Translations under genes and position numbers: made by a program
Notes under the pieces: model-generated
What the model saw: only the letters and a program-made list of their open reading frames with translations
What the model was told of the DNA's origin: nothing
The model's database searches: none
From: an uncultured Gammaproteobacteria bacterium
GTDB taxonomy: Bacteria; Patescibacteriota; Patescibacteriia; JACPHY01
Direction: 5' to 3'
NCBI GenBank assembly: GCA_964585225.1
Contig: CAZPCZ010000017.1
Location: 1-21,888 of the forward strand
DNA: 21,888 bases
Part shown: piece after piece, positions 10,481-19,910 of the stretch
Numbering within the stretch: the stretch's first letter is position 1
Layout of the letters: the number at the start of each line of letters is the position of its first letter

Positions 10481-12640
10481 TCAAATATCCAAATTCTTCA
10501 CCGTCTTCGCATGCGTCTGGATGAATTTCTTCCTCGGCTCCACCTCCGACCCCATGAGGACGTCGAAGATTGCGTCCGCTTTTTGCGCGTCATCCACGGT
10601 CACGCGCTTCAAGACGCGTCGAGCAGGGTCCATGGTCGTCTCCCACAGCTGTTCCGGGTTCATCTCGCCTAACCCTTTGTACCGCTGGATGGAAGCCTTG
10701 ATTTCGGTGGCGATTTCCTGTTTTGCGTCCTCTTTCTCCCCCTCCCTCCGGGAGGGGGAGGTGTGGGGGTGGGGCGCTTTCCTGCGTTGTTGCATCTCCT
10801 TCAGGATTCGATCCCGCTCGTCATCGCTGTACGCGTACCGCACCTCCTTCCCGACCTGGATGCGGTAGAGCGGCGGTTGTGCGATGTACACGTGCCCCTG
10901 TCGGACGAGCTCCGAGAAGTACCGCCAGAAGAGCGTGAGGAGGAGTGTGCGGATGTGCGATCCGTCCACGTCCGCGTCGGTCGCGATGATGATGCGGTCG
11001 TAACGGAGCTTCGCAATTTCGAACTGCTCGCCGATGTTCGTCCCGAGCGCGATGATGAGCGACTTGATTTCGTTGTTCGCGAGCATCTTGTCGAGCCGCG
11101 CGCGTTCGACGTTGAGGATCTTCCCGCGCAATGGGAGGATCGCCTGGAACTCGCGATTGCGTCCCGATTTCGCACTGCCTCCGGCCGAATCTCCTTCCAC
11201 AATGAACATCTCCGACGCCTTCGGGTCCCGCGAGGAGCAGTCTGCGAGCTTTCCCGGCAACGTGAGCCCCTCGAGCACGCCCTTGCGGAGCACAGTCTCC
11301 CGCGCGGCCTTCGCGGCCGCCCGCGCCTGCGCGGTGAGCAGGCACCGCGCGATGATCGCCTCGGCGTTCCGCGGGTGTTCCTCGAGGAACGCTGCGAACG
11401 CGTCGCCGAACACCGTCGCGACCGCGGTCTGCGCTTCGGGGTTCCCGAGCTTCGCCTTCGTCTGCCCCTCGAACTGGGGGTCTTTCACCTTCACGCTCAC
11501 GATCGCGGTGAGCCCCTCGCGGACGTCCTCACCGCTCAGGTTCTCGTCCTTCTCCTTCAGGTACCCCTTCGCGCGCGCGTACGCGTTGAGCGTCCGCGTG
11601 AGGGCAGTGCGGAAGCCCTGGATATGCGTGCCACCTTCGGGGTTCACGATGTTGTTCGCGAACGCGAGGACATTCTCGCGGACGTCCTTGTTGTATTGGA
11701 GTGCAACCTCCACCTGGATGCCATCAGATTCCTTATCGACGTAGCACACCGCATCGTGCGCGGGGTCCTTGCGTTGGTTCAAGTGGCGGACGAACGACGC
11801 GATCCCACCCTCGAAGTGGAAGGTGTACGTGCGGAGTGGTAGCACCGTGGCTGCCGCTTTTGGATCGAAGGCGCTCGCGAGGAGCTGTTGCCCGAGCGCC
11901 GACTCCTCCCGGAGGTCCTCAATGATGTACGTGACACCCTTCGTGAGGTACGCCTGCTGTCGGATGTGGTCGAGGATGGTCTGACGGTCAAACCGAATTC
12001 CTTCCGTGAAGATGACCGGATCCGGGTGGAACGTGACCGCGGTCCCAGTGCCGGCAGACGGCTGCCTGCCGATCGCCTTCACCTTCGCCCTCGGGACGCC
12101 GCGTTGGTACTCCTGCACCCAGAGTTGGCCATCGCGCTTCACCTCGGCCCGGAGCAACGTCGAGAGCGCGTTGACGACCGAGACACCGACGCCGTGGAGC
12201 CCGCCGGACACCTTGTACCCGCCGCCGCCGAACTTGCCACCGGCATGGAGCTTCGTCATGACGAGCTCGAGCGCGCTCGTCTTGAATTGCGGGTGCGGGT
12301 CCACCGGGATGCCGCGACCGTCGTCAATCACCTGGACGTGGTCATCGGGGAGAAGGCGGATCGTGATGCGCTTCGCGTACCCGGCCATCGCCTCGTCGGT
12401 GCCGTTGTCCACCACCTCATTGACGAGGTGGTGGAGCCCGGGGGATCCGGTCGTGCCGATGTACATCCCCGGCCGCTTGCGCACCGGATCGAGTCCCTCG
12501 AGCACCGTGATCTGCTGCGCACGGTACTCAGTCGCACTCTTCTCGCGTTTCTCTCCCACTCCCTTGGAGGGGGAGCGGGCGTGCCCCGCGGAGCCTTGGC
12601 GAAGTGGGGAGGGGGTGGACCCTCGTTTGCCCTTTGCCAT
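10481..12640 (-). CDS. gyrB: DNA gyrase subunit B
   Basis: Unmistakable GyrB motifs (VLEGLDPVRKRPGMYIGTT, HHLVNEVVDN, IQRYKGLGEMNPEQLWETTMDP, QTHAKTVKNLDI). The start is uncertain: the ATG at 12640 (MAKGKRG...) gives a ~40-aa basic Ser/Pro-rich N-terminal extension, an upstream ATG at 12688 is also open, and an internal GTG near 12559 would give a canonical-length N-terminus. Confidence 0.93.
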   Translation of the reverse strand: MAKGKRGSTPSPLRQGSAGHARSPSKGVGEKREKSATEYRAQQITVLEGLDPVRKRPGMYIGTTGSPGLHHLVNEVVDNGTDEAMAGYAKRITIRLLPDDHVQVIDDGRGIPVDPHPQFKTSALELVMTKLHAGGKFGGGGYKVSGGLHGVGVSVVNALSTLLRAEVKRDGQLWVQEYQRGVPRAKVKAIGRQPSAGTGTAVTFHPDPVIFTEGIRFDRQTILDHIRQQAYLTKGVTYIIEDLREESALGQQLLASAFDPKAAATVLPLRTYTFHFEGGIASFVRHLNQRKDPAHDAVCYVDKESDGIQVEVALQYNKDVRENVLAFANNIVNPEGGTHIQGFRTALTRTLNAYARAKGYLKEKDENLSGEDVREGLTAIVSVKVKDPQFEGQTKAKLGNPEAQTAVATVFGDAFAAFLEEHPRNAEAIIARCLLTAQARAAAKAARETVLRKGVLEGLTLPGKLADCSSRDPKASEMFIVEGDSAGGSAKSGRNREFQAILPLRGKILNVERARLDKMLANNEIKSLIIALGTNIGEQFEIAKLRYDRIIIATDADVDGSHIRTLLLTLFWRYFSELVRQGHVYIAQPPLYRIQVGKEVRYAYSDDERDRILKEMQQRRKAPHPHTSPSRREGEKEDAKQEIATEIKASIQRYKGLGEMNPEQLWETTMDPARRVLKRVTVDDAQKADAIFDVLMGSEVEPRKKFIQTHAKTVKNLDI

Positions 12641-12911
12641 ATCAGACCATCGAATCAAACAGAGAGGCCCTGGCTGTGGGCCGCTCATGCTTACCTTGAG
12701 GATACCATAGAGAGTCGCGGTATTCCAGTGTGCTCAGCCAGGATTTCCACATCTCCAATGGCTCCATTGACGGAAGTAAATTCGTCAATGCTTGACGATT
12801 CCTTCGATTTGTGTAAAGGTGTAGGCGCTCAGGGTGGCTGAGTGGGTTCGTTCCAGAGAGGACCGCTCGTTCACAACACCACACGCAACCGGATTGCGAG
12901 GAGGCACCATC

Positions 12912-13535
12912 GTGAGGACCATTCGAATCGTTGGCGTGGTGCTCCTCGTGGGCACCGTCATCGGCGGCCTCATCTGGGGCGCCTGGTATCTCGAGGAGTA
13001 CTCGAAGCGGATCAGAACCGTGGTCGTGGAGCGACCTGGCGGCGACCTCTTCGCTATCGAGATCGAGGAGCGTGAGGGTCCGATCGTCTTCGTCCAATGC
13101 GACGAGGACGAGTTCGAGGAGTCTTTCGCCGCGTTCCGGAAGTTCCTCAACGTCGAGGGGACGCCCCTCGCCGTTCCGGGAGGGCCGATGCTCATCGCGC
13201 AGGCACCTACCGAGGTGTCCGAGGAGCTCAAACCGGCCCAGCGGGCGGCGATCGAGATCCTCAAGCGGCACGCACCGCGGCGGATCATCCTCCTCGCCCA
13301 TTCGGACTGTCTGCTCTACGACACGGTCGCGGCCTGGCAGGATCGGCTCGATTCGGTGAAGCAGAAGCAGTTCGACGACCTGAAGCGTACCGTCGCCGTC
13401 ATCGAGCGCTGGCTCCCCCACACGAAGGTGGAGGTGTACTATGCGCTCCGCGACGGCAAGCAGATCCGATTCAACCCGGTGGACCTCTCACCGCGAGCGG
13501 GTCCGTCGGAGCGTGGATCGCTCGAGGGTCGCTGA
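12912..13535 (+). CDS. Membrane-anchored beta-carbonic-anhydrase-like protein, degenerate paralog (CDED instead of CxDxR; HSDC retained)
   Basis: A GTG start 7 nt after AGGAGG is preferred to the upstream start in the track. One N-terminal TM helix. Clearly paralogous to the 15919-16455 product (FVQCDEDEF~IYCTDPRYR; LAVPGG~ITVPGG; RRIILLAHSDC~RRIVCVAHQDC; KVEVYYA~PVETYFA). Confidence 0.6.
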   Translation: MRTIRIVGVVLLVGTVIGGLIWGAWYLEEYSKRIRTVVVERPGGDLFAIEIEEREGPIVFVQCDEDEFEESFAAFRKFLNVEGTPLAVPGGPMLIAQAPTEVSEELKPAQRAAIEILKRHAPRRIILLAHSDCLLYDTVAAWQDRLDSVKQKQFDDLKRTVAVIERWLPHTKVEVYYALRDGKQIRFNPVDLSPRAGPSERGSLEGR

Positions 13536-13593
13536 TCAGCAAGACCACGAACAACCTGTAGATGCGGCTCACGGACGCCGCAGGAGGTGTCAC

Positions 13594-14199
13594 ATGTTCG
13601 AGTGGGCTACATCGCTCCTCTCGGGCGCGATGGCGGAACTCATGTTCCTCGCCATCTGCATCGGGAGTGCGGTCATCACCACCTTCTCCCTCATCTTTGG
13701 GGGGGACCACGATGCCGATCACGGAGACGTCGGTGGCGACCACGGAGACGTGGGTGGCCACGACGTGCACCACGACGACGGCGACCACAGCCGCGACGGT
13801 CCCGGCTTCTTCTCGGTGCGGGGGCTCACGCTCTTCGGCACCGGCTTCGGGGGGGTCGGTTACCTCGTTCAGCACTTCACGAGCCGCACGCTCACGGCGG
13901 GAGCGTCGGGGCTTGCCGCGGGCGTCGCGCTCGCGGCGGTCGGCCTCGCCTTCATCCGCGCCTTCTACCACCAGCAGGCGTCGTCGCTCGTCCCTTCGGG
14001 GGCGATCGTCGGCGCGGTGGGTATGGTTACCACCTCGATTCCGCGCGACGGAGCCGGGGAGGCAGAGTTCACGGTCGGCGGTATCCACACGACACGGCTC
14101 GCGACGAGCGCGAACGGCGCGGCGATCGAGCGCGGGAAGACGGTGCGCGTGGTGCGCGCCGCCAGCCACGCGGTCGTCGTCGAGCTACTCGCCTCGTAG
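13594..14199 (+). CDS. NfeD-like membrane protein (YuaF/YqiJ family) with a His/Asp-rich repeat loop
   Basis: RBS caggagg. TM helices, then the GGDHDADHGDVGGDHGDVGGHDVHHDDGDHSRDG segment, then a C-terminal OB-fold-like ...GEAEFTVGGIHTTRLATSANGAAIERGKTVRVVRAASHAVVVE. Sits directly upstream of flotillin, as in yuaF-floT and yqiJ-yqiK. Confidence 0.7.
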   Translation: MFEWATSLLSGAMAELMFLAICIGSAVITTFSLIFGGDHDADHGDVGGDHGDVGGHDVHHDDGDHSRDGPGFFSVRGLTLFGTGFGGVGYLVQHFTSRTLTAGASGLAAGVALAAVGLAFIRAFYHQQASSLVPSGAIVGAVGMVTTSIPRDGAGEAEFTVGGIHTTRLATSANGAAIERGKTVRVVRAASHAVVVELLAS

Positions 14200-14238
14200 T
14201 CCAATCGAAACGAAACAACAAAGGAAAGGAGTAACACC

Positions 14239-15891
14239 ATGGGACTCGTCTCGTCATTCGGAGTACCGATCGCGATTATCGCGATCGCCATCGCCTTCCT
14301 CGGCGTCATCGTCTTCGTCGCGAGGAACTACCTCCGCTGTCCGCCGAACGAGGTGCTCGTCCTCTTCGGACGCCAGCATCGGTTCATCGGCGACGACGGC
14401 AAGGCGATCACCCGCGGCTACCGGCTCATCACCGGTGGCGCGGCCTTCCGCGTGCCGCTCCTCGAGCAGTCGAAGAGCCTGTCACTCGCGCTCTTCGCCG
14501 TCCCGGTCAAGGTCGAGGACACGCCGAACAAGGACGGCGTGCTCGTCACCATCGAGTCGGTGGCGAACGTACGCCTCTCCTCGAACCCGACGCTCCTCGG
14601 TGCCGCGGTCGAGCAGTTCCTCGGCAAGACGGGAGAGGAGATCGAGGCGATCATCCACTCGACGCTCGAAGGCATCGTGCGTCAGCTCGTCGGCACGCTC
14701 ACCATCGAGGAGATGGTGCGCGACCGCGAGGCGATCGCCCATCGGGTGATCGAGCTCACGACCGCCGAACTCGCGAAGCTCGGCGTCGAGTGCAAGAACT
14801 TCGTCCTCACGAAGGTCACGGACAAGAAGGGCTACATCGATGCCCTCGGCCGCAAGCGCGCGGCCGAAGTGCTCCGTGACGCCGAGATCGGCGAAGCCGA
14901 GGCGAAGCGCGAGGCGACGATCAAGTCGTCGACGGCGCTGCGGGAAGCCGAGGAGCAGCGGCTCAAGAACGAAGCCCAAGTCGCCGATGCGAACCGCGAC
15001 CTCGCGGTGAAGAAGGCCAAGTACGACGCGGAGACGCAGGCCGAGCAGGCCAAGGTCGCGCTCGCAGGCCAGATCGCGAAGGCCGAGCAGGAAAAGGAGC
15101 TCAAGCTCAAGGTGGTCGCGGTCGAGCAGACCGAGGTCGAAGCGAAGACGGGCGTGGCGGAGAAGCGCGCGGTTCTCGCCGAGAAGGAACTCGAGGCCAC
15201 GCGCATCAAGCAGGCCGAAGCCGAGAAGAGAGCCAGGATCATCGAGGCCGAGGCCGCGAAGCAGGCCCGGATCCTCACGGCCGAAGCCGAGAAGCAGGCG
15301 GCGATCACCGAGGCCGAGGGCCAGGCGACCGCGGCTGCATCGCAGGCCCGGGCCGCGGAAGAGCAGGCGAAGGCCACGAAGGCGGCGGCCAACGCGGAGC
15401 AGGCCCGCCTCGCGGCCCTGGGAAAGGGCGAAGCCGAGGCGCTCGAGGCGCGCGGCAGGGCGGAGGGCGAGGCCGTCAAGGCCAAGCTGCTCGCCGAGGC
15501 TGAGGGCGTCAAGGCGAAGAACGACGCGCTCGCCCAGATGTCAGAGGGCGCGCGGCTCATCCTCGTCCTCGACCGTCTGCCCGAGGTCCTCGAGCAGGGC
15601 GGTGAGGCGCTCGCCAAGGCGATCGGGCCGGCCTTCCAGGGCATCGGCGCCGGGCTCGCCGCGGTCGACAGGATCGAGATCATCGATCTCGGTAGCGGCG
15701 CGAACGGTCAGGGAACGGCGGTCGAGCGCTTCGCGCTCGCCGTGCCGCAGATCGTCCTCCGGGCGCTCACGGCCGGCCAGGCGACCGGGATCGACCTCTC
15801 GGATCTCCTCGGCAAGCTCGGCATCCGCGTGGCCCGGCAGGGCGGCGCCTCGGCGTCGGCCCCCCACGCAGACGGGTCGGAGAAGGCATAA
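14239..15891 (+). CDS. Flotillin-family SPFH (band 7) protein, FloT/YqiK-like
   Basis: RBS aaaggaaaggag. N-terminal TM, an SPFH domain, a long Ala/Glu-rich coiled coil with EA repeats (AEAEKRARIIEAEAAKQARILTAEAEKQ...), and a conserved C-terminal region. Confidence 0.9.
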   Translation: MGLVSSFGVPIAIIAIAIAFLGVIVFVARNYLRCPPNEVLVLFGRQHRFIGDDGKAITRGYRLITGGAAFRVPLLEQSKSLSLALFAVPVKVEDTPNKDGVLVTIESVANVRLSSNPTLLGAAVEQFLGKTGEEIEAIIHSTLEGIVRQLVGTLTIEEMVRDREAIAHRVIELTTAELAKLGVECKNFVLTKVTDKKGYIDALGRKRAAEVLRDAEIGEAEAKREATIKSSTALREAEEQRLKNEAQVADANRDLAVKKAKYDAETQAEQAKVALAGQIAKAEQEKELKLKVVAVEQTEVEAKTGVAEKRAVLAEKELEATRIKQAEAEKRARIIEAEAAKQARILTAEAEKQAAITEAEGQATAAASQARAAEEQAKATKAAANAEQARLAALGKGEAEALEARGRAEGEAVKAKLLAEAEGVKAKNDALAQMSEGARLILVLDRLPEVLEQGGEALAKAIGPAFQGIGAGLAAVDRIEIIDLGSGANGQGTAVERFALAVPQIVLRALTAGQATGIDLSDLLGKLGIRVARQGGASASAPHADGSEKA

Positions 15892-15918
15892 CCAGGACGT
15901 GGGAGGAGAAGAAACCCC

Positions 15919-16455
15919 ATGAGCACGACCACAATGAGTGTCGCACCCGCGGCTCATGCACAACAGGCGCCGAGCCCCTTCGAGAGCTCCGTTCCCTACA
16001 CCGGGGAGTGGGGCGACGCGCTCGTCATCTACTGCACGGACCCACGGTACCGGCGGCAGACGCACGAGCTCCTGCATGACCAGCTGGGGTTGCAACACCC
16101 GGCGGTCATCACGGTCCCCGGAGGGGTGGCAGTACTCCTGCCGCTCGTGGGTATCGCCCACAAGCTCGTGAAGGGCTGGCTCGACCTGCTCTTCGCGAAA
16201 CACCGCCCGCGGCGCATCGTCTGCGTCGCGCACCAGGACTGCGCTGCCTACGGCGCGGCCAAACACCCGGTCCTGAACTTCCTCGTAAAGGCAGCGACCG
16301 GGCACGCGATGGCCGATCTCCAACAGCAGCACCTCCGGCAGGCCCAGACCACGCTCGCGACGTGGTTCCCCGGCATCCCGGTTGAGACCTACTTCGCCGA
16401 GGTGAAGGCCGAGCCCGATGGCTCGCATCGGGTCGCCTTCACGCCGGTCACCTAG
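15919..16455 (+). CDS. Beta-class carbonic-anhydrase-like protein (Cab-type motifs hhIYCTDPR and IVCVAHQDC)
   Basis: RBS gggaggag. 178 aa. The CxDxR...HxDC spacing and flanking hydrophobics resemble small archaeal/bacterial beta-CAs. Paralog of the 12912-13535 product. Confidence 0.55.
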   Translation: MSTTTMSVAPAAHAQQAPSPFESSVPYTGEWGDALVIYCTDPRYRRQTHELLHDQLGLQHPAVITVPGGVAVLLPLVGIAHKLVKGWLDLLFAKHRPRRIVCVAHQDCAAYGAAKHPVLNFLVKAATGHAMADLQQQHLRQAQTTLATWFPGIPVETYFAEVKAEPDGSHRVAFTPVT

Positions 16456-16475: not shown

Positions 16476-16721
16476 ATGGCCATCCTCAGCATGCTGTTCC
16501 TGCTCGCGCTCATCGTGATCGCGTGCACCTACTTCAACTCGAGGCACGCGGACCTCTGGGGACTGAAGGGTGTCCTCGCCGGCACCGGGATCTTCTTCCT
16601 GGTGCGGTGGGGGATCCCGATCCTCTTCGGCCTCCTGCACCTCGCGCTCTTTCTCGTCGTGCTCGCGGTCATCGTGACCGTCGTGCTCATCGGCGTGAAG
16701 CTCCTCGCGAAGCACACGTGA
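16476..16721 (+). CDS. Small hypothetical integral membrane protein (81 aa, ~3 TM)
   Basis: RBS aaaggagaaacgac before the ATG. A strongly hydrophobic ORF, followed immediately by terminator hairpins. Confidence 0.45.
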   Translation: MAILSMLFLLALIVIACTYFNSRHADLWGLKGVLAGTGIFFLVRWGIPILFGLLHLALFLVVLAVIVTVVLIGVKLLAKHT

Positions 16722-16723
16722 TG

Positions 16724-16838
16724 GCGGCCTGAAGGCCGCCGCTACGAGCGATCGAGACACCATACGCCCCTCCGATGTTCATCGGAGGGGCGAACCATTT
16801 GGCGCAAAAAAATTTAGGGACTTGACTTTTTTTGCGCC
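16724..16838 (+). terminator. Cluster of three perfect hairpins: ggcggcc-tgaa-ggccgcc; cgcccctccgatg-ttc-atcggaggggcg; ggcgcaaaaaaa-N14-tttttttgcgcc
   Basis: Seen directly. The third stem has A7/T7 tracts and works as a terminator in either direction. Its loop carries a TTGACT box. Confidence 0.5.
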
Positions 16839-18773: not shown

Positions 18774-19910
18774 GTGCCGCGTTTTCCCTCAGCACTACGT
18801 TCCGTGGATGGGTTGTTGATCACCGCTGTCGCATTGATGGCGGTGTTCGGTTGCATTGGGCTCGCAAGCTTGGGACTCCGGAGCACCCCACCAAATTTTT
18901 CGCTTCTCACACGCCAGCTCATCGCGATCGGCATCGGCGTCGTCGCGCTCGTGGTCGTTGCCCGTATTGACCACCACGCATGGGAACGGTGGTGGCCAGC
19001 GGTTGCGGTCGCCGTCGGTATCCTCCTTATCGGTGTCCTCCTCGTTGGCACCCGTATTCGCGGGACGCGCGGGTGGTTTGCGCTCGGTGGGTGGACGCTC
19101 CAGCCGGTTGAGTTCGCAAAGATCGGGCTCATCCTCCTCCAGGCGGTGTACTTCCGCCGTCGGGCGCGCCTCCTCGATCGGTTTCGAACCGTCCTCGAGA
19201 GTGCAGGGATCACCGCAGCAGTCGTGGTGCCCGTCCTCCTCCAGCCGGACCTCGGTTCCGCGGTGATCCTGATCCTCGTTTGGCTCGGCATGCTCTTCGT
19301 CATCGGTCTTCGGAAGAACCACCTCATCGCCATCGTCGCGGTCGCTCTTGTCACGGTCGCCATCGGGTGGCAGTTCTTCCTCCACCCGTACCAGCGCGAG
19401 CGGATCCTCACGTTCCTCGATCCCCACCGTGATCCCCAAGGCGCTGGCTACAACCAACGCCAGGCCGTGATCGCGGTCGGTGCCGGCGGACTCATCGGTC
19501 GCGGGTTCGGGCAGGGAACGCAATCGCAGCTCCGGTTCCTCCCGGAGGCGCAGTCCGACTTCCTCCCGGCGGTGTTCGCGGAGGAGTTCGGATTCGTCGG
19601 GCTCATGTTCCTCGTCGCGGCAGTGGTCGTCATCCTCCTCCGCTGCGCGTCGGTCGCGCGACGTTGCCCTGACGACTTCTCCGCTGCCGTTGTCATGGGA
19701 TTCGCGCTCCTCTTCGGCATCCAAGCGTTCCTGAACCTGGGGATGAACCTTGGGGGTGTGCCGGTGCTCGGGATCCCGTTCCCATTCGTGAGCGCGGGCG
19801 GGAGCGCGGTGGTCGCGTTCGGGCTCGGGCTCGGGATCGTGAGCGGGATTGCGAGGCGGACCCCCCGCGCGGAGCGGTCAACATACGAATTCGAAGTCAT
19901 CCCGAGCTAA
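18774..19910 (+). CDS. SEDS-family peptidoglycan glycosyltransferase (FtsW/RodA/SpoVE)
   Basis: Ten predicted TM helices. Conserved ...GAGYNQRQAVIAVGAGGLIGRGFGQGTQSQLRFLPEAQSDFLPAVFAEEFGFVG... and ...VPVLGIPFPFVSAGGSA... . The GTG start is as given in the ORF track. Confidence 0.85.
   Translation: MPRFPSALRSVDGLLITAVALMAVFGCIGLASLGLRSTPPNFSLLTRQLIAIGIGVVALVVVARIDHHAWERWWPAVAVAVGILLIGVLLVGTRIRGTRGWFALGGWTLQPVEFAKIGLILLQAVYFRRRARLLDRFRTVLESAGITAAVVVPVLLQPDLGSAVILILVWLGMLFVIGLRKNHLIAIVAVALVTVAIGWQFFLHPYQRERILTFLDPHRDPQGAGYNQRQAVIAVGAGGLIGRGFGQGTQSQLRFLPEAQSDFLPAVFAEEFGFVGLMFLVAAVVVILLRCASVARRCPDDFSAAVVMGFALLFGIQAFLNLGMNLGGVPVLGIPFPFVSAGGSAVVAFGLGLGIVSGIARRTPRAERSTYEFEVIPS

What the first reader, a model, noticed from the sequence alone, without database searches (positions are those of the whole stretch)
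12912..16455. NfeD-flotillin operon bracketed by two paralogous beta-carbonic-anhydrase-like proteins, one intact-motif and one degenerate and membrane-anchored
The 12912-13535 and 15919-16455 products are clearly homologous to each other along their whole length. The downstream one has the beta-CA zinc/catalytic signature in the right order and spacing (hhIYCTDPR ... IVCVAHQDC, like Cab-type CMDSR ... GHTDCG). The upstream one keeps Cys/His/Cys (QCDEDE ... LAHSDC) but has lost the catalytic Arg and gained an N-terminal TM helix. A flotillin/NfeD scaffold flanked by an active-looking enzyme and its pseudo-enzyme paralog suggests a membrane-microdomain-organised CO2/bicarbonate or metal-handling module. 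This recalls the stomatin/anion-exchanger/CA association known in eukaryotes. I do not know of a described bacterial operon with this composition.
Basis: partly seen in the sequence, partly recalled or inferred. Interest (0 to 1): 0.7.

Follow-up and report, generated by a model that had tools for sequence, protein, structure and literature searches.

The report
Flotillin operon with two carbonic-anhydrase-like partners
A bacterial membrane-scaffold (flotillin/NfeD) operon is flanked by two related zinc-site proteins with a carbonic-anhydrase-like fold, and the same four genes recur in distant bacteria, so these proteins may be dedicated partners of a bacterial flotillin; their chemistry is untested.

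Summary
Five tightly spaced + strand genes, each with a Shine-Dalgarno site, form an operon: A (12912-13535, one N-terminal TM helix), an NfeD-like protein, a 550-aa flotillin, B (15919-16455) and a small local membrane ORF.

A and B are homologous (family profiles: 98.8%, E 9e-17). B passes Pfam PF20393 "Pro_CA_2, putative carbonic anhydrase". A is a divergent, membrane-anchored branch of that family (99.9%, E 4e-33).

B keeps Cys/Asp/Arg/His/Cys. A keeps Cys/His/Cys with an invariant Glu in place of Asp and a variable Arg position. That is a conserved variant, not decay.

A-NfeD-flotillin-B recurs in 9 independent loci with unrelated flanks and no counter-example. NfeD-flotillin-B also occurs without A. 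Most family members are not flotillin-linked.

The function is inferred: a zinc hydratase-like client or partner of a flotillin scaffold, possibly tethered through A. No paper found describes this linkage. I rate it a new variant of a known kind, of moderate to high interest.

The parts
12912..13535 (+). Gene A: 207-aa membrane-anchored, divergent Pro_CA_2 (beta-CA-fold) paralogue. TM helix about residues 6-24 (12927-12983). Putative zinc ligands are C63 (13098-13100), H130 (13299-13301) and C133 (13308-13310). An invariant E65 (13104-13106) replaces the catalytic Asp, and E67 sits at the Arg position.
13594..14199 (+). NfeD-like (YqiJ/YuaF-type short NfeD) membrane protein, 201 aa. It has three hydrophobic segments, a His/Asp/Gly-rich loop (13699-13800) and a C-terminal beta-rich domain.
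   Evidence: Only weak Pfam hits (NfeD 10.7 bits, YqiJ_N 10.4 bits). Homologues in other cassettes carry faint precomputed PF01957/PF25842 hits. It occupies a conserved position upstream of flotillin in every cassette, at 35-43% identity.
14239..15891 (+). Flotillin (SPFH/Band_7) scaffold protein, 550 aa. It has an N-terminal hydrophobic anchor, an SPFH domain, a long Ala/Glu-rich coiled-coil region and a flotillin C-terminal region.
   Evidence: PF01145 E 4.9e-22; PF15975 Flot at 19.9 bits, below cut-off. NCBIfam FloT model 216 bits, below the equivalog cut-off of 700. 41-50% identical to the flotillins of the other cassettes.
15919..16455 (+). Gene B: 178-aa soluble Pro_CA_2 protein with the full beta-CA signature. 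Residues are C39 (16033-16035), D41 (16039-16041), R43 (16045-16047), H105 (16231-16233) and C108 (16240-16242).
16476..16721 (+). Small hydrophobic ORF (81 aa), 20 nt after B, with its own AGGAG site. It probably belongs to the transcript in this organism but is not a conserved cassette member.
   Evidence: ORF and RBS. It is called on the independent contig L014. There is no equivalent downstream of B in L004, L007 or L011. No family hit.

Best explanation
This is a conserved operon in which a flotillin/NfeD membrane scaffold is genetically tied to two zinc-site proteins of the Pro_CA_2 branch of the beta-carbonic-anhydrase superfamily.

Shown:
- Both proteins have the beta-CA fold.
- B has the complete Cys-x-Asp-x-Arg ... 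His-x-x-Cys catalytic signature.
- A is a paralogue carrying an N-terminal transmembrane anchor. It keeps Cys/His/Cys but has an invariant Glu in place of Asp and no fixed Arg.
- The order A-NfeD-flotillin-B recurs across diverged genomes. NfeD-flotillin-B is the core, and A is an addition in one clade that arose next to the cassette-type B.

Inferred:
- B is a zinc-dependent small-molecule hydratase. CO2/bicarbonate is the most likely substrate.
- B works at the membrane as a dedicated client or partner of the flotillin assembly.
- Beta-CAs function as dimers or higher oligomers, so A most likely pairs with B (or with itself). That would tether the activity to the flotillin microdomain, or regulate it, with its Glu-type site either permanently 'closed' or tuned differently.

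My confidence differs by step: about 0.9 for fold and family, about 0.8 for a functional link to flotillin, about 0.35 for true CA activity, and about 0.3 for an A:B heteromer.
For: Fold and family:
- Pfam PF20393 hit for B.
- 96 of 98 broad relatives hit PF20393, and 52 of 98 also hit PF00484 weakly.
- The broad profile hits 26 beta-CAs among 27 PDB matches. The best is Nce103 at E 1.4e-6, aligning CSDxR and HxDC.

Site conservation:
- C39/D41/H105/C108 are invariant, and R43 is at least 90% conserved, in 98 representatives.
- The C-x-D type has Arg in 108 of 117. The C-x-E type (A-like) has Arg in only 17 of 64.
- C/E/H/C are invariant in 42 A-types.

Linkage:
- The full cassette occurs in the window/L014, L004, L007, L008, L009, L011, L033, L138 and L141, with different flanking genes each time. 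Truncated but consistent copies are L136 and L139.
- In an independent motif-based sample of 80 family genes, flotillin sits directly upstream in 4 of the 35 loci with at least 1.5 kb of upstream sequence (7 of 80 overall). Band_7 is the only recurrent Pfam family among 109 adjacent same-strand ORFs.
- Operon structure: short gaps, an SD site before each gene, and a 4-nt A/NfeD overlap in L004.
- In an NJ tree the A-types sit next to the cassette-type B clade.

Background: SPFH proteins form rings, domes or cages that hold client proteins (PMC12624060, PMC13220708, PMC11222466).
Against: - No activity, metal content or interaction data exist for any member of PF20393.
- TM-scores to solved beta-CAs are only 0.43-0.52 and sequence identity is 11-18%, so the pocket may differ. 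B has no hit to the canonical PF00484 model.
- Zinc-site geometry in the models could not be measured here.
- Most family members (about 90% of the sample) are not next to flotillin, so the family's basic function does not need a scaffold.
- A's topology is ambiguous. It has a short N-tail with 1-2 Lys/Arg, and acidic W-x-L-E-E follows the helix. If A's domain is periplasmic it cannot pair with cytoplasmic B.
- Cassettes lacking A exist.
Confidence: 0.5

Rival explanations
1. A and B are non-catalytic. They are zinc-site (Cys2His) proteins that act as adaptors, regulators or sensors of flotillin/NfeD assembly, for example sensing bicarbonate/CO2, zinc or thiol redox state. They would reuse the beta-CA fold as LCIB-type and other CA-like proteins do.
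For: - A has lost the Asp-Arg dyad but is under strong constraint, including an A-specific invariant CLLYD...AAW stretch.
- The fold match to real CAs is only moderate (TM 0.43-0.52).
- LCIB-type beta-CA-fold proteins are among the structural hits.
- NfeD itself is a non-enzymatic SPFH partner (PMC13086221).
Against: B and about 92% of the C-x-D family keep the full catalytic set Cys/Asp/Arg/His/Cys. That is hard to explain without catalysis. Most family members are stand-alone genes, which fits an enzyme better than a scaffold adaptor.
Confidence: 0.25
2. The proteins are enzymes of the beta-CA fold with a different substrate, for example a COS/CS2-type hydrolase or another small heterocumulene or ester. 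CO2/bicarbonate is not the physiological substrate.
For: - Family-specific conserved residues (PGG, HxDCxxY) differ from canonical beta-CA motifs.
Against: - No sulfur-metabolism or other pathway genes recur next to the family.
- COSase and CS2 hydrolase share the same catalytic residues as CAs, so sequence cannot discriminate between them.
Confidence: 0.12
3. This is a zinc or other metal handling module. The His/Asp-rich loop of the NfeD-like protein and the two Cys2His sites would buffer, deliver or sense a divalent metal at the membrane.
For: A 34-residue loop with 11 Asp and 7 His lies in the NfeD-like protein (13699-13800). Similar loops occur in all cassette homologues. Both flanking proteins have conserved metal-ligand triads.
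Against: - No metal transporter, chaperone or regulator is conserved in the neighbourhoods.
- From my own recollection, not tested here, His-rich loops are a general trait of YqiJ-type NfeD proteins, including operons without CA-like genes.
- One buried catalytic-type site per protein is poor buffering capacity.
Confidence: 0.08
4. The adjacency is incidental. Two unrelated housekeeping CA-like genes merely sit beside a flotillin operon in this genome.
For: Most Pro_CA_2 genes are not flotillin-linked.
Against: - The same gene order occurs in 9 independent, 34-50% diverged loci with unrelated flanks.
- Every A-type locus examined is linked.
- Linkage occurs in at least three parts of the family tree.
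- The genes show operon-like spacing.
Confidence: 0.02

Closest known systems
Pfam PF20393 (Pro_CA_2, 'Putative carbonic anhydrase'), an uncharacterised bacterial family
   Same: B scores above the gathering threshold (41.9 vs 30 bits). 96 of 98 broad relatives match. They share the C-[ST]-D-x-R ... PGG ... H-x-D-C-x-x-Y signature.
   Different: A scores below threshold (18.7 bits). It has a TM anchor and a C-x-E site with a variable Arg position. The flotillin-linked members are a minority of the family. No member has a tested function, and I found no paper on the family.
Canonical beta-class carbonic anhydrases (Pfam PF00484; e.g. Cab 1g5c, Nce103 3eyx, pea 1ekj)
   Different: Only 11-18% identity and TM 0.43-0.52. 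B has no PF00484 hit. Canonical motifs (GQxP, RN[AV][AG]N, GHxxCGG) are replaced by family-specific ones (VPGG, AHxDCxxY). Activity is unknown.
Bacterial flotillin-NfeD operons (B. subtilis yuaF-floT(yuaG)-yuaI; E. coli yqiJ-yqiK; S. aureus nfeD-floA)
   Same: The NfeD-like gene lies immediately upstream of a flotillin with an N-terminal anchor, SPFH domain and coiled-coil C-terminus. The operon partnership matches that described in PMC2636767 and PMC11222466.
   Different: Described operons have no CA-like genes; in B. subtilis the third gene, yuaI, encodes a GCN5-related acetyltransferase (PMC2636767). Here one or two Pro_CA_2 genes are fixed members of the cassette.
HflK/C-FtsH and other SPFH cage-client assemblies
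   Same: The concept of an SPFH ring or cage that encloses or organises a specific membrane-anchored enzyme (PMC13220708, PMC12624060).
   Different: The client here would be a single-pass beta-CA-like protein, not a protease. No physical interaction has been shown, so this is an analogy only.

Membership tests
Beta-carbonic-anhydrase superfamily (fold level) | Alpha/beta fold with a central parallel sheet, as in solved beta-CAs | tested here: met
Beta-carbonic-anhydrase superfamily (fold level) | Zinc ligands Cys ... His-x-x-Cys in the canonical positions | tested here: met
   C39/H105/C108 are invariant in 98 relatives and align with the CSDSR and HTDCGG motifs of Nce103. A has C63/H130/C133 invariant in 42 A-types and aligned to the B ligands.
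Beta-carbonic-anhydrase superfamily (fold level) | Catalytic Asp-Arg dyad (C-x-D-x-R) | tested here: met
   This row is for B only. D41 is invariant, and R43 is present in 108 of 117 C-x-D-type sequences. For A this feature is NOT met: Glu is invariant at the Asp position, and the Arg position is Arg in only 17 of 64.
Beta-carbonic-anhydrase superfamily (fold level) | Three-dimensional zinc-site geometry, zinc occupancy and CO2 hydration activity | not testable with these tools
No biochemical data exist.
Canonical beta-CA, Pfam PF00484 (Pro_CA) | Score at or above the PF00484 gathering threshold | tested here: not met
   Neither A nor B has a PF00484 hit at E <= 1. 52 of 98 relatives give only weak hits, the best at E 1e-4.
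Pfam PF20393 (Pro_CA_2) | Score at or above the gathering threshold (30 bits) | tested here: met
   B scores 41.9 bits. A scores 18.7 bits, below threshold, but profile-profile comparison places it in the family at 99.9%, E 3.8e-33. A is therefore a divergent subfamily rather than a threshold member.
Flotillin (SPFH2 / FloT-YqiK type) | SPFH/Band_7 domain, N-terminal membrane anchor and a flotillin-type coiled-coil C-terminus | tested here: met
   PF01145 E 4.9e-22. The Flot C-terminal model gives 19.9 bits, below its cut-off of 27. The NCBIfam FloT model gives 216 bits over residues 12-380, below the equivalog cut-off of 700. The hydrophobic N-terminus is seen directly. This is a flotillin-family protein, not a FloT equivalog.
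NfeD (short, YqiJ/YuaF-like) | C-terminal NfeD OB-fold domain and N-terminal TM segments, encoded next to an SPFH gene | tested here: inconclusive
   PF01957 gives 10.7 bits (cut-off 29.1) and PF21001 gives 10.4 bits. Homologues have faint precomputed PF01957/PF25842 hits. Position and hydrophobic pattern fit. No structure was predicted for it.

The most novel reading that the evidence does not exclude
The cassette encodes the first genetically defined, dedicated enzymatic cargo of a bacterial flotillin. In this reading a membrane-tethered A:B heteromer of a divergent beta-CA-fold family works inside or at a flotillin/NfeD dome. That would create a membrane-attached compartment for CO2/bicarbonate interconversion, or for a chemistry not yet known for this fold.
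Probability: 0.25. Interest if true: 0.8.

Novelty: new variant of a known kind. Interest (0 to 1): 0.6.

Why it matters
It is still debated what bacterial flotillins do and whom they serve, and clients have mostly been inferred from proteomics. A cassette that fixes two specific proteins next to flotillin and NfeD across distant lineages gives a concrete, testable client or partner pair. It also gives a first functional handle on PF20393, a family of about 1000 sequence clusters with an intact beta-CA catalytic signature and no characterised member. If B is a real CA, this would be a prokaryotic case of a scaffold-organised CO2/bicarbonate enzyme at the membrane. If it is not, the family is a new use of the beta-CA fold.

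Tried and rejected
- Single-sequence searches of A and B against PDB sequences found nothing relevant. The A-type profile alone also found no beta-CA. The link to beta-CA needed the broad family profile and structure comparison.
- NCBIfam gave no family for A, B or NfeD.
- PADLOC gave no defence-system hit.
- Rfam found no RNA family in the window.
- The promoter/terminator scan was not informative.
I replaced it with my own degenerate DNA pattern spanning CSDxR-PGG-HxDCxxY. All 80 returned loci were true family members.
- The genome-contig scan with the A family gave only two loci, so taxonomy is poorly resolved. The two are an Acidobacteriota MAG and a 7.5-kb contig binned as Ca. Komeilibacteria.
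- The afdb50 fold library was unavailable.
- I tested whether the N-terminal [FY]-x-S-x-x-P-[WYF] motif of B is a flotillin-specific docking motif. It occurs throughout the family whether or not flotillin is adjacent, so I rejected the idea.
- Positive-inside analysis of A's topology was ambiguous.
- A search for other recurrent neighbours of the family found none beyond flotillin, apart from one closely related group of six loci (L032, L055, L056, L057, L080, L090).
Full report
**1. What is in the sequence**

On the + strand, downstream of a divergently oriented 735-aa ORF that reads as GyrB (10481-12688, my reading of the translation, not tested), lie five closely spaced ORFs:
- A: 12912-13535, 207 aa.
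- An NfeD-like protein: 13594-14199, 201 aa.
- A flotillin: 14239-15891, 550 aa.
- B: 15919-16455, 178 aa.
- A hydrophobic 81-aa ORF: 16476-16721.

The gaps are 58, 39, 27 and 20 nt, and each start codon is preceded by a GGAGG/AGGAG site 6-9 nt upstream. An independent metagenome contig (L014) carries the same genes with the same gene calls.

**2. A and B are homologous**

BLASTP of the two proteins gives E 1e-8 over the C-terminal 90 residues. Close relatives were collected for each: 6 for B and 15 for A. hhalign of the two alignments gives 98.8% probability, E 9.4e-17, over 138 columns that span nearly the whole globular domain of both.

In a joint alignment, C39, G69, P97, H105, C108, Y111, W149 and A160 (B numbering) are invariant. 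A wider A-type alignment (42 sequences) against a wide family alignment (98 sequences) gives 99.9%, E 3.8e-33.

**3. Relation to beta-carbonic anhydrase**

B passes the gathering threshold of Pfam PF20393, 'Pro_CA_2, putative carbonic anhydrase' (41.9 against 30 bits). A hits the same model below threshold, at 18.7 bits.

An exhaustive profile search finds 976 cluster representatives at E <= 1e-3. Across 98 of them, C39, D41, H105 and C108 are invariant and R43 is at least 90% conserved. 96 of 98 match PF20393, and 52 of 98 also weakly match the canonical beta-CA model PF00484.

A profile of these 98 sequences searched against all PDB sequences returns 27 matches at E <= 10, of which 26 are beta-CAs. 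The best is yeast Nce103 (3eyx, E 1.4e-6). That alignment puts the family's CSDxR on Nce103's CSDSR and its HxDC on HTDCGG.

AlphaFold models are confident: B has pLDDT 88.2 and pTM 0.79, and A has pLDDT 83.6 with an N-terminal helix at 2-31.
- Foldseek agrees for B: the top 30 hits are all beta-CAs, with E down to 2e-5.
- TM-scores of 0.43-0.52 and 11-18% identity show a distant relationship.

In the B model the first Cys follows strand 1, and His-x-x-Cys follows strand 3. From my recollection of solved beta-CA structures, that is the canonical placement. I could not read the model coordinates, so the zinc-site geometry itself is untested.

**4. How A differs**

A-type proteins have a single N-terminal hydrophobic helix (mean hydropathy 2.4) after a tail with a median length of 6 residues.

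Their site is C-x-E rather than C-x-D, and the Glu is invariant in 42 diverse A-types. The position of the catalytic Arg holds Arg in 17 of 64, Glu in 15 and Lys in 9, with other residues in the remainder. By contrast, the C-x-D type has Arg in 108 of 117.

A-types also share a strongly conserved stretch after the second Cys (CLLYDT[IV]AAW). This is the pattern of a constrained variant site, not of a decaying pseudo-enzyme.

Topology is unresolved. The short tail carries 1-2 Lys/Arg, while the segment after the helix has more Lys/Arg but also a conserved acidic W-x-L-E-E.

**5. The linkage to NfeD-flotillin is conserved**

Starting from A or B homologues, the order A-NfeD-flotillin-B was found in the following loci:
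- the window/L014
- L004 (with L005 and L006)
- L007
- L008
- L009 (a 1.4-Mb contig of an Acidobacteriota MAG)
- L011-L013
- L033
- L138 (B cut by the contig end)
- L141 (A cut by the contig end; the flotillin is split in two frames)

L136/L137 and L139 end inside the flotillin but are consistent with the same order. Pairwise identities between cassettes are about 41-51% for A, 35-43% for NfeD, 41-50% for flotillin and 28-46% for B.

The flanking genes differ in every locus: a GyrB-like ORF here, sulfatase/AsnA in L004, PTR2/porin in L007, and MazE/Fic in L011. No A-type gene was found outside such a cassette.

B-type genes directly after a flotillin were also seen in L001 and in the distant L010.

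**6. An independent sample of the wider family**

I scanned the metagenome collection with a degenerate DNA pattern for CSDxR-PGG-HxDCxxY. All 80 returned loci encode true family members.
- Flotillin lies directly upstream in L023, L033, L048, L049, L053, L081 and L085. That is 4 of the 35 loci with at least 1.5 kb of upstream sequence.
- Clustering of neighbouring ORFs finds flotillin as the most recurrent neighbour. The only other recurrent clusters belong to one group of six loci (L032, L055, L056, L057, L080, L090).
- A Pfam scan of 109 adjacent same-strand ORFs finds Band_7 (6) and Flot (4) as the most recurrent families. Only Aminotran_5 and Cupin_2 (2 each) also recur; the rest are singletons.
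- L053 and L023 have NfeD-flotillin-B with no A-type gene upstream.
- In a neighbour-joining tree the A-types sit next to the cassette-type B clade. Other flotillin-linked B genes (L010/L085/L049, and L023) sit elsewhere in the tree.

My reading is as follows. The family is mostly stand-alone. Its one recurrent partner is flotillin. The core module is NfeD-flotillin-B. A arose by duplication of B within such an operon and acquired a membrane anchor.

**7. Mechanism (inferred)**

SPFH proteins assemble into rings, domes or cages on membranes, and these organise or enclose clients. Examples are HflK/C with FtsH, and S. aureus FloA-NfeD, which holds unfolded proteins (PMC12624060, PMC13220708, PMC11222466).

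In this operon the natural candidates for client or partner are A and B. B has every residue needed for beta-CA-type catalysis, so it is most simply a zinc hydratase. CO2/bicarbonate is the default substrate, and COS/CS2-type chemistry cannot be excluded from sequence.

Beta-CAs act as dimers or higher oligomers (established knowledge). A membrane-anchored paralogue that always co-occurs with B is therefore a plausible tether or regulatory subunit. None of this has been tested.

The rivals, set out in the rival explanations, are a non-catalytic adaptor or sensor role, a different substrate, and a metal-handling role suggested by the His/Asp-rich loop of the NfeD-like protein. Incidental adjacency is effectively excluded.

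**8. Novelty**

B is a new member of an already catalogued but uncharacterised Pfam family, and A is a divergent anchored subfamily of it. Full-text searches found no paper mentioning PF20393, and none linking flotillin, NfeD or SPFH operons with a carbonic-anhydrase-like partner. Three papers that discuss SPFH/NfeD operons or neighbourhoods do not mention one either (PMC2636767, PMC9239133, PMC13086221).

I classify the cassette as a new variant of a known kind: an SPFH-NfeD operon with dedicated beta-CA-like partners.

**9. Limits**

- No biochemical evidence exists for any family member.
- Zinc-site geometry was not measured.
- No multimer prediction was possible.
- The NfeD assignment rests on weak profile hits plus position.
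- Taxonomy is known for only two loci.
- The neighbour-joining tree is crude.
- The motif-based sample is biased towards GC-rich genomes, because the DNA pattern fixed TGC-TCN codons.

Noticed in passing
window 13699-13800 (NfeD-like protein residues 36-69): A His/Asp/Gly-rich loop, GGDHDADHGDVGGDHGDVGGHDVHHDDGDHSRDG (11 Asp, 7 His, 10 Gly), lies between the first two hydrophobic segments. Comparable loops occur in the NfeD-like proteins of L004, L007, L008, L009, L011 and L033. It looks metal-binding.
   Followed up: partly
window 16476-16721 and 16723-16740: An 81-aa very hydrophobic ORF sits 20 nt after B with its own AGGAG site. It is present on L014 but not in other cassettes. Directly after its stop codon is a GC-rich hairpin (GGCGGCC-TGAA-GGCCGCC) without a T-run, which the terminator scan did not report.
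   Followed up: partly
L053 6201-8878 and L023 720-4735: These are NfeD-flotillin-B cassettes without any A-type gene upstream, so A is not obligatory. In L023 the ORF with the NfeD-like part is long (317 aa stop-to-stop). The upstream ORF ends in a sequence that looks like ECF sigma-factor region 4 (my reading, not tested). The flotillin signal there spans two overlapping frames.
   Followed up: partly
L020 2855-3310 and 3480-3956; L139 3780-4232 (- strand): Two Pro_CA_2 genes lie in tandem without any flotillin (L020). An extra Pro_CA_2 gene sits on the opposite strand about 0.7 kb upstream of an A-NfeD-flotillin cassette (L139). Paralogue pairs of this family therefore occur in more than one arrangement.
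   Followed up: no
L141 772-2699: The flotillin of this cassette is split into two overlapping reading frames (called as 229-aa and 314-aa genes). This is either a frameshift or an assembly error.
   Followed up: no
L008 (MHKK01000059.1, 7.5 kb): A complete cassette lies on a short contig binned as Candidatus Komeilibacteria (candidate phyla radiation). Its A protein (256 aa) differs at only a few residues from P0020 (also 256 aa), which comes from an unrelated run. The bin assignment of such a short contig may be unreliable.
   Followed up: no
L032, L055, L056, L057, L080, L090: A subgroup of short Pro_CA_2 genes (about 140 aa, CSDGR[IVL]) shares conserved downstream ORFs with one another. 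It is the only recurrent neighbourhood besides flotillin. The six loci cluster together in the NJ tree. The neighbours were not identified.
   Followed up: no
window 18774-19910 and L136 1342-2430: An FtsW/RodA-family gene lies about 2.3 kb downstream of the cassette in the window, and directly upstream of the cassette in L136/L137. This could be chance or loose synteny among relatives.
   Followed up: no
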